This document shows, piece by piece, positions 1 through 4,601 of a stretch of DNA of 4,601 nucleotides. Position numbers and translations under genes: made by a program. The notes below the pieces were generated by a model, which worked only from the letters and a program-made list of their open reading frames with translations, was not told the origin of the DNA and searched no databases. The stretch's first letter is position 1; each line of letters starts with the position of its first letter. The stretch is taken from positions 1-4,601 of the IMG/VR virus record IMGVR_UViG_2545824644_000011; one strand, 5' to 3'. This DNA is from a virus. Lineage: Duplodnaviria > Heunggongvirae > Uroviricota > Caudoviricetes.

Positions 1-289
<289 letters not shown>

Positions 290-710
290 GTCTCCGGCCA
301 ACGTGACGGTTTCCATCCTGTCCACTGAGGGCGACGGCACAGCAACGGAGGCGTTGCTTAATACCGTTCGCGCCGTTCTGAATGCAGAGGATACCCGCCC
401 GGTGGCCGACCGCCTGACCGTACAGAGTGCCAGAATCATGACATGGCGGCTGAATGCAAAACTGTACTTTTACCCCGGCCCGGAATCCGAACCTATTCTG
501 GCCGCGGCAGAATCGTCATTCAGGAAGTGGCTGGCTGAACAGGGGCTTATCGGTCAGGACGTGGCGTTGTCCGCCATTGCTGCCGCACTGCATGTGCACG
601 GTGTGCAACGCGTGGAGATAATCGAACCCACACAGAATATGGCCATCAGCGACATACAGGCAGCGCGCTGTGAGTCATTCACCATCAGTGAAGGTGGGCG
701 CAATGAGTAA
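290..710 (+). pseudogene. Baseplate assembly protein J-like (P2 gpJ family), C-terminal fragment of about 140 aa truncated at its 5' end by the IS insertion
   Basis: The translation ...VRAVLNAEDTRPVADRLTVQSARIMTWRLNAKLYFYPGPESEPILAAAE...LHVHGVQRVEIIEP... resembles the C-terminal half of P2 gpJ-type proteins, which are about 300 aa. The frame is closed by a stop at 285-287 inside the IS terminus, and the only available start is a GTG at 303. The stop TAA at 708-710 overlaps the next gene's start. Confidence 0.7.
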
Positions 711-1235: not shown

Positions 1236-3251
1236 ATGAGTACCACAACACGAAAATTTAAAACCATTATCACTGATACTGGTGCCAAAAAATTAGCTCA
1301 GGCTGCCGCGCCAGATGGTAATCCTGTCCGCCTGACTCATATGGCCGTGGGCGACGGTGGCGGCACGTTGCCCACACCAGACAGTAAGCAGACCCGTCTG
1401 GTGCATGAGGTGTGGCGACATACTGTTAATCGCGTCATCCTGGACGCAACACATCAGAACCGCATTATTGCGGAGCTGGTTATTCCTCCTGAAACGGGCG
1501 GATTCTGGATCCGGGAAATTGGTGTATTTGATGAGCACGGCGATTTGATCGCGGTGGGCAATACTGCCGAAAGTTACAAACCAACCGTTGCCGAAGGATC
1601 CGGACGTGCACAAACATTTCGCACCATTCTGACCGTATCCAGCACTGCCACCGTGGCGCTTACCGTGGATAACACCATGGTGATGGCCACAGTGGATTAC
1701 GTGGATGACAAACTGAAAGAGCATGAACAGTCACGACGTCACCCGGACGCCTCGCTGACCGCAAAAGGCTTTGTTCAACTCAGTAGCGCCACTAACAGCG
1801 TGTCTGAAACGCAGGCTGCAACGCCGAAAGCAGTAAAGGCCGCGTATGACCTTGCTAACGGGAAATATACTGCGCAGGATGCCACCACAGCGCGGAAAGG
1901 CCTTGTCCAGCTCAGTAGCGCCACCAACAGCACGTCTGAAGCACTGGCCGCAACACCGAAAGCGGTAAAGACAGCATATGACCTTGCTAACGGGAAATAT
2001 ACCGCTCAGGACGCTACGACAGCACAAAAAGGGATTGTCCAGCTAAGCAGCGCGACTAACAGCACATCTGAAACGCTTGCCGCGACACCGAAAGCAGTGA
2101 AAGCAGCTAATGACAATGCGAATGGTCGGGTACCTTCTGCCCGTAAGGTGAATGGTAAGGCGCTTTCAGCGGATATTACACTGACGCCGAAAGATATTGG
2201 TACGCTTAACTCAACAACTATGTCATTCAGCGGTGGTGCTGGTTGGTTCAAATTAGCAACGGTAACCATGCCGCAGGCGAGTTCTGTTGTTTCAATTACG
2301 TTGATTGGTGGCGCGGGATTTAACGTGGAGTCACCTCAACAGGCAGGTATATCTGAACTTGTTCTTCGTGCGGGAAATGGAAATCCAAAAGGTCTTACTG
2401 GTGCGTTATGGCGACGGACATCGGTTGGATTTACTAATTTTGCATGGGTGAATACATCCGGTGATACCTATGATGTTTATGTTGAAATAGGTAATTACGC
2501 CACAGGTGTTAATATTCAATGGGATTATACCAGTAACGCCAGCGTAACGATTCATACTTCACCAGCATATTCTGCTAATAAGCCGGAAGGATTAACGGAC
2601 GGTTCTGTTTATTCGCTGTATATTTCGCCTCATGAACTTTATCCGGTTGGCGCACCGATCCCTTGGCCATCAGATACCGTTCCGTCTGGTTATGCCCTGA
2701 TGCAGGGGCAGACTTTTGACAAATCTGCATACCCGAAACTTGCAGCCGCTTATCCGTCAGGCGTGATCCCTGATATGCGTAGCTGGACGATTAAGGGCAA
2801 GCCCGCCAGTGGTCGTGCAGTATTGTCTCAGGAACAGGACGGCATTAAATCGCACACCCACAGCGCCAGTGCATCCAGTACGGATTTGGGGACGAAAACC
2901 ACATCGTCGTTTGATTACGGTACCAAGACGTCCAGTTCATTTAACCATGGCACTAAAACCACGAATAGCGCCGGGGATCATTCACACAATATTCCTGTTG
3001 GCAACACTGGTGCTGGTAATGGTGTTTCGGCTGGTTATAACTCAGGGCTTGGCACTGGAAAAACAAGTAACGCAGGGGGGCACTCTCACACAGTAAATAT
3101 TGGCGCACACACTCATACGGTAGGAATTGGCGCACACACACACTCCGTTGCGATAGGTTCACACGGGCATACCATCACCGTTAACGCTACGGGTAACGCA
3201 GAAAACACCGTAAAAAACATCGCATTTAACTATATTGTGAGGCTTGCATGA
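1236..3251 (+). CDS. Tail fibre protein, 671 aa, mosaic: P2 gpH-like N-terminal domain, three tandem 44-aa repeats, divergent central domain, lambda Stf-like C-terminal tip with His-x-His motifs
   Basis: ATG at 1236 lies 2 nt after the gpI stop. The N-terminus (...[27 protein letters not shown]...[48 protein letters not shown]...) is gpH-like. The C-terminus (...[74 protein letters not shown]...[31 protein letters not shown]) matches the lambda side tail fibre terminus. Confidence 0.9.
1764..2132 (+). repeat. In-frame tandem repeat inside the tail-fibre gene: three units of 132 bp (44 aa), starting at 1764, 1896 and 2028; the third unit is partial and degenerate
   Basis: The units encode KG[F/L/I]VQLSSATNS[V/T]SE[T/A][Q/L]AATPKAVK[A/T][17 protein letters not shown][R/Q]. 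Amino-acid identity between units is high, while the DNA differs at many synonymous positions. Confidence 0.85.
3075..3180 (+). other. His-x-His motif array in the tail-fibre tip ([36 protein letters not shown]), presumed metal-coordinating
   Basis: The translation of 3075..3180 shows four consecutive HxH units at a period of about 9-10 aa. Similar HxH repeats occur in tail-fibre distal domains (T4 gp37 and lambda Stf family). At DNA level an imperfect direct repeat of about 27 bp, ...TTGGCGCACACAC..., lies at about 3099-3147. Confidence 0.7.
3238..3242 (+). promoter_or_regulatory. Shine-Dalgarno-like element (TGAGG) for the macrodomain ORF, embedded in the 3' end of the tail-fibre gene
   Basis: TGAGG at 3238-3242 lies 5 nt upstream of ATG 3248. 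The ATG overlaps the tail-fibre stop TGA (3249-3251), giving an ATGA coupling arrangement. Confidence 0.5.
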
Positions 3252-4150
3252 TTACGCTCATTCTTTCTGCACCAGTAACAGAAATGGCTGAAGCATTTAA
3301 GCAGGTATTTGCAAATGCAGATAGTGTGAATATTGTCGGAAAGCCATTTGAAACAATCAGAGAATTTGACTGCATGGTAAGTGCGGCAAATAGTTTCGGC
3401 CTGATGGATGGTGGCGTTGATGCCGCCATTACCGCATTCTTCGGTACTCAGTTACAGTCCCGCGTTCAGAATCATATTCTTCGTGAATATCTCGGCGAAC
3501 AGCCTGTAGGTTCTGCATTTGTCATTGAAACGGGGCATAATCATCACCCCTGGCTGGTACATGCGCCAACAATGCGTGTTCCGTTGACAATTGACGGAAC
3601 AGACGCTGTATATAACGCAACCTGGGCCGCTCTGCTTGCCATCTTTCAGCACAATAAAAACGCAACGACAGACATGAAAATAAAAACAGTGGTATTCCCT
3701 GCAATGGGGGCCGGATGTGGTCAGGTGCCGTTTGAAAGTGTTGCCCGACAGATGAAGCAGGCATGGGATAACTTTAATAAAAAAACAGAATCAATTAACT
3801 GGGAATACGCACAATCTCGCCAGTCGGCAGTATTTGGCACATATGCATACTGTCCGGGTAATTCCGTTTGCCGTTATGCGGATACTAAATATATTGGATG
3901 CGGCGATTATCGGACGTGTTGCTCTCGTTCCGGGCAAGTCTGTATTAACCCTGAACATCAGGCTGATGATGTACTGATACAACATCAGGCTAATAACCGT
4001 TTTCGCCATGGTTCGCATATACACCGGATTAATCCAGAAAATCCCGTAGGTAATGTCACCTCTGGCGCACATAGCCACGGAAGTAGCATCGTTATTGGTA
4101 CTCCTACCCATACGCTCAATAAACAATATTCTGTCTCTGATATTAAGTAG
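3248..4150 (+). CDS. Macrodomain-containing protein, 300 aa: N-terminal macro (ADP-ribose binding/processing) domain of about 180 aa plus a C-terminal extension of about 120 aa carrying a 6-Cys cluster and His-x-His fibre-tip-like motifs
   Basis: The single long ORF starts by overlapping the tail-fibre stop. Residues 43-61 (nt 3374-3430), [19 protein letters not shown], match the macrodomain signature (V/I)NAAN-x-L-x-GGGV-x-x-AI. Residues 148-161 (nt 3689-3730), [14 protein letters not shown], match the second signature (IAFPAISTGVYG-like). The C-terminal part has C202, C208, C218, C224, C225 and C232, then [36 protein letters not shown]. Confidence 0.7.
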
Positions 4151-4158: not shown

Positions 4159-4601
4159 ATGGATTTCAGAATGAGTGAACAATCACGGACCATAAAAATT
4201 TATAACCTGCTGGCCGGAACTAATGAATTTATTGGGGAAGGTGATGCATACATTCCACCTCATACAGGTCTGCCTGCAAACAGTACCGATATTGCACCAC
4301 CAGATATTCCGGCTGGCTTCGTGGCTGTTTTCAACAGTGATGAGGCATCGTGGCATCTCGTTGAAGACCATCGGGGTAAAACTGTTTATGACGTGGCATC
4401 AGGGGACGCGTTATTTATTTCTGAACTCGGTCCGTTACCGGAAAATGTTACCTGGTTGTCGCCGGATGGAGAGTGTCAGAAGTGGAACGGCACATCCTGG
4501 GTGAAAGATGCAGAAGCAGAAAAACTGTTTCGGGTAAGGGAGGCAGAAGAAACAAAAAACAGCCTGATGCAGGTAGCCAGTGAGCATATTGCGCCACTTC
4601 A
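4159..4601 (+). CDS. tfa: Tail fibre assembly protein (lambda Tfa family), 3'-partial, runs off the window end
   Basis: Hand translation from ATG 4159 gives [147 protein letters not shown] with no stop before the window end. This is nearly identical to lambda Tfa as I recall it. It is missing from the ORF track because it has no stop inside the window. Confidence 0.9.

What the first reader, a model, noticed from the sequence alone, without database searches (positions are those of the whole stretch)
3851..4150. Macrodomain protein carries a Cys-cluster and a tail-fibre-tip-like His-x-His C-terminal extension
After the macro fold the ORF continues for about 120 aa. Residues 202-232 (nt 3851-3943) hold six cysteines ([31 protein letters not shown]), suggestive of a metal-binding knuckle. 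Residues 254-289 (nt 4007-4114), [36 protein letters not shown], echo the fibre's own tip motifs (compare [15 protein letters not shown]... and [10 protein letters not shown] in the upstream gene). The resemblance is at protein level only; the DNA is not an obvious duplicate. This could mean the enzyme docks onto the fibre or the Tfa chaperone, or that the ORF is a fusion of a macro gene with the remnant of a displaced fibre tip.
Basis: inference. Interest (0 to 1): 0.6.

Follow-up and report, generated by a model that had tools for sequence, protein, structure and literature searches.

The report
Macrodomain enzyme with fibre-tip-like tail
An optional ADP-ribose-processing (macrodomain) gene wedged between a prophage's tail-fibre gene and its chaperone gene ends in a cysteine module and worn copies of the metal-binding His-x-His repeat of the fibre tip. 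The feature is real and conserved across the family, but its function is untested.

Summary
ORF 3248-4150 (300 aa) is a macrodomain protein with about 105 extra C-terminal residues, and the Cys cluster and His-x-His stretch lie exactly where stated.

The frameshift-artefact reading is refuted: 89 of 90 related enterobacterial loci keep one reading frame.

Only four of the six cysteines are conserved (C202, C208, C225, C232). They form an orphan module with no relatives outside this family. H254 is unique to this window, and its third HxH is degenerate.

The HxH tail resembles the fibre tip beyond composition (hhalign 96%, E 2.4e-9; shuffle tests). The upstream fibre ends in the phage T4 gp37 C-terminus (PDB 2XGF), whose HxH motifs bind iron on the trimer axis. 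There is no DNA-level duplication.

The gene is a precise, optional insertion between the fibre stop codon and the tfa start codon. It occurs in 128 of 5426 E. coli genomes, also in Gifsy-1, SEN4/5 and Chuche, and is co-transcribed with the late genes.

The tail evolves about three times faster than the true fibre needle (dN/dS 0.43-0.51 against 0.14-0.20).

Best reading: late-expressed ADP-ribose-processing cargo whose fibre-derived tail acts as a metal-stapled, possibly Tfa-assisted, trimerisation or docking module. This is inferred, not shown. I class it as a new variant of a known kind.

The parts
1236..3251 (+). Tail-fibre gene (671 aa), P2 H / lambda Stf type, with a T4 gp37-type C-terminus.
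   Evidence: Pfam Phage_tail_fib N-terminal domain, 3x Phage_fiber_2 and Collar. The C-terminal profile hits T4 gp37 (PDB 2XGF) at E 6.8e-28.
3075..3248 (+). Fibre-tip HxH repeats ([35 protein letters not shown], 9-residue period) followed by [19 protein letters not shown].
   Evidence: In T4 gp37 these histidines coordinate seven iron atoms on the trimer axis (PMC6957217).
3248..3251 (+). ATGA overlap: the macro ORF start codon overlaps the fibre stop codon, implying translational coupling.
   Evidence: Sequence. The same 4-nt overlap occurs at every related locus where the junction could be read.
3248..4150 (+). Macrodomain ORF (300 aa), member of phrog_2613; NCBI name 'macro domain-containing protein'.
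3377..3754 (+). Macro fold proper (residues 44-169). The family core spans residues 1 to about 197.
   Evidence: PF01661, 68 bits. Stand-alone ~200-aa homologues at ~50% identity match residues 1-195 only. The nearest solved fold is yeast Ymx7, 1njr. dN/dS 0.12-0.14.
3839..3982 (+). Orphan Cys module (residues 198-245): AYCPx4Cx..YIGxGDYRTxCx2SGx2CIx3HQxDD. Conserved residues are C202, C208, C225, C232, H237, D240 and D241.
   Evidence: Alignment A1. AF2 on the extension alone gives a small beta-sheet with block-mean pLDDT 70-75 over most of this module. No relatives outside the family in 1.84e9 representatives, in PDB sequences or by fold. dN/dS 0.20-0.39.
3954..3994 (+). 27-nt-spaced direct repeat (AACATCAGGCTGAT / AACATCAGGCTAAT) encoding EHQAD.../QHQAN....
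   Evidence: The shorter 289- and 296-aa alleles lack the second copy.
4007..4114 (+). Degenerate gp37-type HxH repeats: GSHIH (255-259), GAHSH (273-277) and GTPTH (284-288, degenerate).
   Evidence: dN/dS 0.43-0.51. AF2 monomer pLDDT below 30.
4115..4147 (+). C-terminal tail [11 protein letters not shown], aligned by hhalign to the fibre's [10 protein letters not shown]. The final AFNYIVRLA of the fibre is absent.
   Evidence: Salmonella alleles read LNPEYLSGVKNDV.
4159..4601 (+). Tail-fibre assembly chaperone gene tfa (lambda Tfa type). The 5' part runs off the window.
   Evidence: PF02413 and phrog_105. It lies downstream at every locus where the downstream region could be read.

Best explanation
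ORF 3248-4150 encodes an accessory macrodomain protein, a binder or hydrolase of ADP-ribose derivatives. It has been inserted precisely between the stop codon of a gp37-type tail-fibre gene and the start codon of its chaperone gene tfa.

It has no promoter of its own and overlaps the fibre stop codon (ATGA). It should therefore be made late in infection, together with the fibre and Tfa. It spreads among P2-like, lambdoid and plasmid-borne enterobacterial phage elements by riding the conserved fibre-tip/tfa cassette.

Its enterobacteria-specific C-terminal extension has two parts. The first is an orphan beta-rich module with four conserved cysteines, probably a metal or disulfide knot. The second is two to four worn copies of the 9-residue G-x-H-x-H repeat of the gp37-type fibre tip, plus a vestige of the following [10 protein letters not shown] segment.

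In the real fibre, each HxH motif from three chains coordinates one iron atom on the three-fold axis. By analogy, the tail most likely makes the enzyme a metal-stapled trimer, possibly folded by the co-expressed Tfa. The macro domain would then act in the cytoplasm on ADP-ribose-derived molecules as a counter-defence or NAD-economy function.

Shown: the anatomy, the conservation, the insertion site, the similarity to the fibre tip, and the selection pattern. Inferred: trimerisation, metal binding, Tfa dependence and the substrate.
For: - Macro domain above the Pfam threshold, with N48 and the GGVD loop (G55, G56, V57, D58) invariant. Nearest fold is an ADP-ribose-1''-phosphatase.
- One frame in 89/90 loci.
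- Same fibre-macro-tfa order with the ATGA overlap in P2-like Chuche and SEN4/5, lambdoid Gifsy-1 and E. coli prophages. In E. coli, 22 of the 131 matching places lie on plasmid records.
- A direct stf-tfa junction without the gene is found in genomes across E. coli (a junction-spanning query matched 4434 of 5426), including K-12 stfR-tfaR. The insertion boundaries are exact.
- The gene is present in 128/5426 E. coli genomes.
- No promoter or terminator signal above background.
- The fibre C-terminus equals the T4 gp37 C-terminus, where His triplets bind seven Fe atoms and are essential (PMC6957217).
- Extension against fibre tip: hhalign 96%, E 2.4e-9; it beats shuffles in all 11 lineages; HxH count 2.13 against 0.60 expected.
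- His and Gly columns are more conserved than other tail columns (0.87 and 0.94 against 0.79).
- HxH repeats persist in Izhakiella alleles even though the Cys linker there is entirely different.
- dN/dS is below 1 throughout.
- Macro, NADAR and Nudix genes embedded in virion-morphogenesis clusters are a described theme in phages (PMC9503650).
Against: - No direct evidence for oligomerisation or metal binding.
- The AF2 monomer model leaves the HxH tail disordered, with pLDDT below 30.
- The tail evolves about three times faster than the genuine fibre needle (dN/dS 0.43-0.51 against 0.14-0.20).
- The tail varies in length. Eight of 54 alleles keep one HxH and one keeps none. One Erwinia allele and a 255-aa E. 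coli allele lack the repeats.
- This window's own copy is one of the most degenerate, and it sits in an IS-disrupted, defective prophage.
- In gp37 the needle is a six-stranded interweave of ascending and descending segments. Three short strands alone may not fold.
- Pfam Phage_fiber is not reached (best E 0.76). Fibres are only non-significant hits in database-wide searches.
Confidence: 0.42

Rival explanations
1. The HxH tail is a largely functionless, slowly decaying vestige. A macro gene once read into, or recombined with, the 3' end of a fibre gene. The leftover fibre-tip coding sequence has drifted since then, and only the macro domain, and perhaps the Cys module, matters.
For: - Relaxed constraint on the tail (dN/dS 0.43-0.51, against 0.12-0.14 for the macro domain and 0.14-0.20 for true fibre repeats).
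- Variable length and different stop positions across lineages.
- Alleles lacking HxH repeats (P0023, P0119).
- The terminal AFNYIVRLA is lost.
- The tail is disordered in AF2 models.
- Stand-alone macro homologues work without any extension.
Against: - dN/dS is still clearly below 1.
- His and Gly positions are preferentially kept.
- The first HxH is nearly invariant across genera.
- HxH repeats are retained in Izhakiella despite a replaced linker.
- No premature stop has removed the tail in 89/90 loci.
- There is no residual DNA homology, so any capture is old, yet the motif pattern has survived.
Confidence: 0.27
2. The tail is a docking module. By mimicking the Tfa-recognised C-terminal segment of the fibre, it binds Tfa or the fibre tip. 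The macro domain would then become a virion-associated decoration at the fibre end, or would modulate fibre assembly.
For: - Gene position between the fibre and tfa genes, with translational coupling.
- The tail resembles exactly the segment shared by T4 gp37 and lambda Stf-type fibres.
- Some source annotations call the family 'phage tail protein'. This is annotation only.
- ADPr-processing enzymes are proposed to be packaged into virions (PMC9503650).
Against: - The same fibre-tip/tfa cassette functions without the gene in most E. coli genomes. Fibre and Tfa sequences next to the gene look ordinary, about 90% identical to K-12 stfR/tfaR across the junction.
- Known macro substrates are intracellular, and a fibre-tip decoration would not enter the cell.
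- No proteomic evidence was found in the paper library.
Confidence: 0.16
3. The resemblance is chance low-complexity (His/Gly-rich sequence), or the ORF is a frameshift or annotation artefact.
For: - The window's own pairwise score is weak (BLASTP E 0.003; 7 bits against the fibre HMM).
- Pfam Phage_fiber is not reached.
Against: - Shuffles that preserve composition are beaten in all 11 lineages.
- hhalign E 2.4e-9.
- The 9-residue period and the trailing N-x-E..VKN segment are shared.
- One frame in 89/90 loci, and dN/dS below 1 in that frame.
Confidence: 0.03

Closest known systems
T4 gp37 long-tail-fibre tip (PDB 2XGF) and the homologous C-termini of lambda Stf and P2 H-type fibres
   Same: G-x-H-x-H motifs at a 9-residue period, followed by an N-x-E..V-K-N-like segment (hhalign 96%). 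The genuine copy sits in the gene immediately upstream.
   Different: Only 2-4 worn repeats. No collar domain, no ascending strands, no head or tip domain, and no terminal AFNYIVRLA. It is attached to an enzyme rather than a fibre shaft, and it evolves about three times faster.
Stand-alone bacterial macro proteins of the Ymx7/Poa1p-like (Pfam Macro / Macro_2) type
   Same: Residues 1 to ~197 are ~50% identical to ~200-aa proteins of Chloroflexota, Cyanobacteria, Acidobacteriota and other phyla. Nearest solved fold is yeast Ymx7, an ADP-ribose-1''-monophosphatase.
   Different: Those proteins end at about residue 200 and have no conserved or phage-related neighbourhood. The Cys/HxH extension and the fibre-tfa location are specific to Enterobacterales prophages.
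Macro, NADAR and Nudix genes embedded in phage virion-morphogenesis clusters (Iyer et al. 2022, PMC9503650)
   Same: An ADPr-processing domain encoded among late structural genes, presumed to counter NAD+/ADPr-based immunity.
   Different: That survey describes head-associated contexts (terminase, portal, MuF) and mostly stand-alone proteins. It does not mention tail fibres or a fibre-like HxH extension ('tail fiber' occurs 0 times).
Phage morons / accessory cargo genes
   Same: Optional gene, present in about 2% of E. coli genomes, inserted between two conserved phage genes.
   Different: No promoter or terminator of its own. It is translationally coupled to the fibre gene, so it is late lytic cargo rather than a lysogenic-conversion gene.

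Membership tests
Macro domain (PF01661) | Match to the family HMM above the curated threshold | tested here: met
   68.1 bits against a cut-off of 22, residues 44-169. All 16 aligned homologues match.
Macro domain (PF01661) | Conserved ADP-ribose-binding loops: Asn of the 'AAN' motif, the GGV[DA] loop and the second Gly-rich loop | tested here: met
   N48, G55, G56, V57, D58 and G154/G156/G158 are invariant in A1. Assigning these residues to ligand contacts rests on general knowledge of macrodomains, not on a test made here.
Macro domain (PF01661) | Binding or hydrolysis of ADP-ribose derivatives | not testable with these tools
   Needs biochemistry.
gp37-type fibre tip / Phage_fiber repeat (PF03335) | Repeated HxH motifs at a ~9-residue period | tested here: met
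   Family consensus GAHxHxxxI in 2-4 copies. 2.13 HxH per tail against 0.60 expected. This window has two intact motifs and one degenerate motif.
gp37-type fibre tip / Phage_fiber repeat (PF03335) | Match to the Pfam model above threshold | tested here: not met
   Only 3 of 16 homologues match, best E 0.76; this window does not match.
gp37-type fibre tip / Phage_fiber repeat (PF03335) | Terminal [11 protein letters not shown] strand and a preceding collar domain | tested here: not met
   Both absent from the extension. Only a vestigial N..(S/T)V(S/K)(D/N)I segment aligns.
gp37-type fibre tip / Phage_fiber repeat (PF03335) | Homotrimer with Fe(II) coordinated by six His per site | not testable with these tools
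   Only monomer prediction was available, and it left the tail disordered.
Zinc ribbon / zinc knuckle | Two CxxC-type knuckles, or a match to a known zinc-finger family or fold | tested here: not met
   Spacing is Cx5C...Cx6C. No significant Pfam hit on the module: the best zinc-finger match was E 0.16, in one of 16 members. No PDB sequence match. No Foldseek match with E below 1. Only family members in 1.84e9 representatives.
Zinc ribbon / zinc knuckle | Four conserved metal-ligand residues on a small beta structure | tested here: inconclusive
   Four conserved Cys plus H237. AF2 beta-hairpins with block-mean pLDDT 70-75 over most of the module. Disulfides are equally possible.
Moron (autonomous accessory gene) | Own promoter and terminator | tested here: not met
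   Consensus hits do not exceed shuffled controls (3 against 3.5). The ATGA overlap with the fibre gene argues for coupled expression.
Known anti-phage defence components (PADLOC) | Match to a defence-system protein model | tested here: not met
   Only a weak DarG hit, E 0.007, 13.9 bits, over 39 residues.

The most novel reading that the evidence does not exclude
The gene is an in-cis antidote to immunity that senses tail fibres.

A 2026 preprint reports that the folded C-terminal knob of a side tail fibre, together with its chaperone, determines sensitivity to type II Thoeris. In that system a TIR protein makes His-ADPR, which is read by a macro-domain effector.

A macrodomain translationally coupled to the fibre and its chaperone would be made exactly when and where the trigger appears. 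It could then hydrolyse or sequester the ADPR-derived signal.

The fibre-tip-like HxH tail could place the enzyme on the Tfa/fibre-tip complex, or act as a decoy for the sensor. Counter-defence would thus travel inside the host-range cassette.
Probability: 0.1. Interest if true: 0.85.

Novelty: new variant of a known kind. Interest (0 to 1): 0.5.

Why it matters
The fibre-tip/tfa cassette is the most frequently exchanged host-range module among otherwise unrelated coliphages (T4, lambda, P2 and P1 types). This finding shows that the cassette can carry an enzyme as cargo. The cargo has acquired part of the fibre's own metal-binding assembly motif.

If the tail drives Tfa-assisted trimerisation or docking, it would be a natural example of a fibre-folding tag reused on a soluble enzyme. 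That could be useful for engineering.

If the macro domain counters ADP-ribose-based immunity, host range and counter-defence would be inherited as one unit. The gene is common enough to be tested directly: Gifsy-1 of Salmonella LT2, phages SEN4, SEN5 and Chuche, and about 2% of E. coli genomes.

Tried and rejected
- **AF2, full length.** With a 16-sequence alignment the model had mean pLDDT 54 and an unstructured extension. It was good enough only to recover macro folds.
- **AF2, extension alone.** Only the Cys module was moderately confident. Foldseek against the PDB gave nothing with E below 1.
- **Word-indexed search with the extension profile (5.8e9 proteins).** It returned only family fragments. 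Two fibre C-terminal fragments appeared at non-significant E-values of 0.59 and 7.3.
- **Full HMMER search with the extension profile (1.84e9 representatives).** Six hits. The only non-family hit, P0155 (E 2e-4), is a repetitive, unrelated-looking protein matching 'YIGDSDFRTQC'. I judged it spurious.
- **PDB sequence search with the extension profile.** No hit.
- **DNA-level duplication between the macro 3' end and the fibre 3' end.** Rejected; only 13-18-nt matches.
- **Conserved neighbourhood of the stand-alone macro homologues.** None found among 93 neighbouring ORFs, so their context gives no clue to the substrate.
- **Own promoter or terminator.** None above background.
- **Programmed frameshift fusing fibre and macro.** Considered because the macro frame is -1 relative to the fibre. 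No slippery sequence is visible at GCATGA, and I did not pursue it.
- **PADLOC.** Only a weak DarG match.
- **Literature searches.** Seven searches found no description of this architecture.
- **Multimer modelling.** Not possible with the tools provided.

Full report
**What is in the window.**

| Coordinates | Feature | Evidence |
|---|---|---|
| 1 to ~289 | Right end of an IS21-family element (IstB C-terminus) | |
| 303-710 | Remnant of baseplate gene J | |
| 670-1233 | Gene I | |
| 1236-3251 | 671-aa tail-fibre gene | |
| 3248-4150 | The 300-aa ORF of the finding | |
| 4159 onward | 5' part of a lambda-type tfa chaperone gene | |

The start codon of the finding's ORF overlaps the fibre stop codon (ATGA).

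**Checking the observation.** Translation reproduces both quoted peptides at the stated residues and nucleotides. The Pfam Macro domain covers residues 44-169. Stand-alone homologues show that the macro family core runs to about residue 197. About 105 residues are therefore an add-on.

**The single frame is real.** The gene occurs in 128 of 5426 complete E. coli genomes, and 127 of these matches cover at least 80% of it. It also occurs in phage Chuche, Salmonella phages SEN4 and SEN5, and Gifsy-1. Many Salmonella, E. albertii, E. fergusonii, Erwinia, Citrobacter and Izhakiella records carry it too.

Of 90 enterobacterial loci fetched, 89 keep one reading frame across the macro/extension boundary. 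The exception, L121, has slipped in an A7 run. Nei-Gojobori dN/dS in this frame is as follows.

| Region | dN/dS |
|---|---|
| Macro domain | 0.12-0.14 |
| Cys module | 0.20-0.39 |
| HxH tail | 0.43-0.51 |
| Genuine HxH repeats of the adjacent fibre genes | 0.14-0.20 |

The extension is translated and constrained, but its last 55 residues are constrained only weakly.

**Anatomy of the extension.** Across genera, four cysteines (C202, C208, C225, C232), H237 and D240/D241 are conserved. C218 and C224 are not.

This module has no detectable relative. It gave only family members in a full HMMER scan of 1.84 billion representatives. It gave nothing in PDB sequences, and no fold match with E below 1. 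AF2 on the extension alone gives a small beta-sheet, with block-mean pLDDT 70-75 over most of the module. I call it an orphan Cys4 module. Whether it binds zinc or forms disulfides is undecided.

After 'HQxDD' come repeats of consensus G-A-H-x-H-x-x-x-I. Salmonella alleles make this plain, for example IGAHTHTIDIGAHNHAIHTG...GIHSHGYHLNPEYLSGVKNDV.

This window's allele is one of the most worn. Its third motif is GTPTH where others have GAHTH. Its H254 is a private Pro-to-His change.

**Relation to the fibre tip.** The upstream fibre ends in ...[59 protein letters not shown] profile of such ends hits the C-terminus of T4 gp37 (PDB 2XGF) at E 6.8e-28.

In gp37, trimer-related histidines bind seven iron atoms along the needle and are essential (PMC6957217).

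The evidence that the macro tail resembles this segment is:
- Profile-profile comparison of the extension family with the fibre-tip family gives probability 96%, E 2.4e-9, over 46 columns. The alignment includes the tail [10 protein letters not shown] against [10 protein letters not shown].
- Against a fibre-tip HMM, every one of 11 lineages beats 1000 composition-preserving shuffles (at most 16/1000; seven at 0/1000).
- HxH motifs are 3.5-fold more frequent than shuffling predicts.
- His and Gly columns are the best conserved in the tail.
- Izhakiella alleles replace the Cys linker with a different Cys-rich sequence but keep the HxH repeats.

The limits of the resemblance are:
- Pfam Phage_fiber is not reached.
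- Database-wide searches give fibres only as non-significant hits.
- There is no DNA-level duplication.

So the resemblance is real and specific, but old or convergent. The extension is not a member of the fibre family in the full sense. It lacks the collar domain, the ascending strands and the terminal AFNYIVRLA.

**Genomic logic.** At every locus where the junctions could be read, the gene follows a fibre gene ending in [11 protein letters not shown], with the same ATGA overlap, and precedes tfa. This holds whatever the rest of the fibre looks like: upstream reading frames of up to about 1180 aa, in P2-like and lambdoid elements. In E. coli, 22 of the 131 matching places lie on plasmid records.

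A synthetic fibre-end/tfa-start junction lacking the gene matched 4434 of 5426 E. coli genomes. The listed matches run across the junction in a single aligned piece, as in K-12 stfR-tfaR.

Alignment of the junctions shows the insertion lies exactly between 'GCAT' of the fibre end and the tfa ATG. No promoter or terminator signal exceeds background.

The gene is therefore optional late-operon cargo. It is flanked by two of the most conserved DNA segments shared among unrelated coliphages, which explains its spread.

**The macro domain.** It is about 50% identical to ~200-aa stand-alone proteins of Chloroflexota, Cyanobacteria, Acidobacteriota and other phyla. Those proteins have no conserved or phage-related neighbours.

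The Asn of the AAN motif and the GGVD loop are invariant. The nearest solved fold is yeast Ymx7, an ADP-ribose-1''-monophosphatase (from a low-confidence model). PADLOC gives only a weak DarG hit.

**Mechanism.** I commit to the following. The protein is a late-expressed ADP-ribose-derivative hydrolase or binder. Its fibre-derived HxH tail forms a metal-stapled three-fold assembly, possibly with the help of the co-expressed Tfa.

Only the anatomy, distribution and selection pattern are shown. Oligomerisation, metal binding and substrate are inferred by analogy with gp37.

The main rival is that the tail is a decaying vestige. This is supported by relaxed dN/dS, variable stop positions and HxH-less alleles. 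A docking or virion-decoration role is possible, but it is weakened because the cassette works unchanged without the gene.

**Context from the literature.**
- Macro, NADAR and Nudix genes within virion-morphogenesis clusters have been described, mostly in head-associated contexts. No fibre-like extension is mentioned (PMC9503650).
- A 2026 preprint reports that the folded side-tail-fibre knob plus its chaperone determines sensitivity to type II Thoeris. That system signals with His-ADPR, which is read by a macro domain (10.64898/2026.06.04.730250). This makes an 'in-cis antidote' reading testable, though it is speculative here.
- Seven literature searches found no description of this macro-Cys-HxH architecture.
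- PHROGs lists the family (phrog_2613) as of unknown function.

**Verdict.** The frameshift and chance explanations are refuted. The Cys 'knuckle' is reduced to four conserved cysteines of unknown chemistry. The fibre-tip resemblance is genuine but ancient. Function remains inferred. I class it as a new variant of a known kind, of moderate interest.

Noticed in passing
window 1-710: The right end of an IS21-family element (IstB C-terminus, to about nt 289) is inserted into baseplate gene J, leaving only its last ~135 codons (303-710). No complete E. coli genome in the collection has this junction. This prophage is therefore defective.
   Followed up: partly
window 3954-3994: A direct repeat 27 nt apart (AACATCAGGCTGAT / AACATCAGGCTAAT) lies inside the macro ORF and duplicates the 'HQA' segment. 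The 289- and 296-aa alleles lack it, so it is a recent small duplication in the linker before the HxH tail.
   Followed up: partly
window 4007-4009 (H254), 3917-3919 (C224), 4097-4102 (T285-P286): This allele carries changes at ligand-like positions. P254H was seen in no other allele retrieved. Y224C and AH-to-TP (which breaks the third HxH) are shared only with its closest clade.
   Followed up: yes
L121 (IMG/VR 2529292735_000009), about 3904-4632: This is the only locus of 90 with a broken frame. A slip in the A-run corresponding to window ~3779-3785 sends translation into the alternative frame, giving a 242-aa product.
   Followed up: yes
L123, 2051-2659 and 4001-4825: One Salmonella viral contig carries a second, truncated fibre-tail plus macro copy upstream of the intact one. 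This suggests tandem duplication or recombination within the cassette.
   Followed up: no
L008, L009, L010 (Izhakiella australiensis): One genome holds three copies of a 300-aa variant. The Cys module is replaced by a different Cys-rich linker (..CDCGCG..ECRCG..), but 3-4 HxH motifs and the ending HGVKK are kept.
   Followed up: partly
Salmonella proteins P0121, P0123, P0126, P0128, P0129, P0136, P0142: Many Salmonella genomes annotate 100-126-aa 'hypothetical proteins'. These are the C-terminal part of this family, starting at an internal Met (about residue 169 or later). They are apparently remnants of alleles whose macro domain is disrupted. P0128 and P0142 each occur on more than 100 contigs.
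   Followed up: partly
window 3075-3248 versus PDB 2XGF: The last ~50 residues of this P2-type prophage fibre are nearly identical to the C-terminus of phage T4 gp37 (E 6.8e-28). This shows how widely the tip/chaperone module is shared.
   Followed up: yes
phrog_14717 (hit to residues 45-170): A PHROG annotated 'tail protein' (228 positions) matches the macro domain very strongly (E 3.9e-63) through its C-terminal half. It may be a reverse-order fusion or a mis-annotated fragment. Its N-terminal 100 positions were not examined.
   Followed up: no
L001 7534-8106 (E. coli O39:NM F8704-2): In the closest complete-genome relative, an acetyltransferase gene (annotated 'serine acetyltransferase') lies on the opposite strand immediately after tfa. 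It is a second accessory gene at the same cassette boundary.
   Followed up: no
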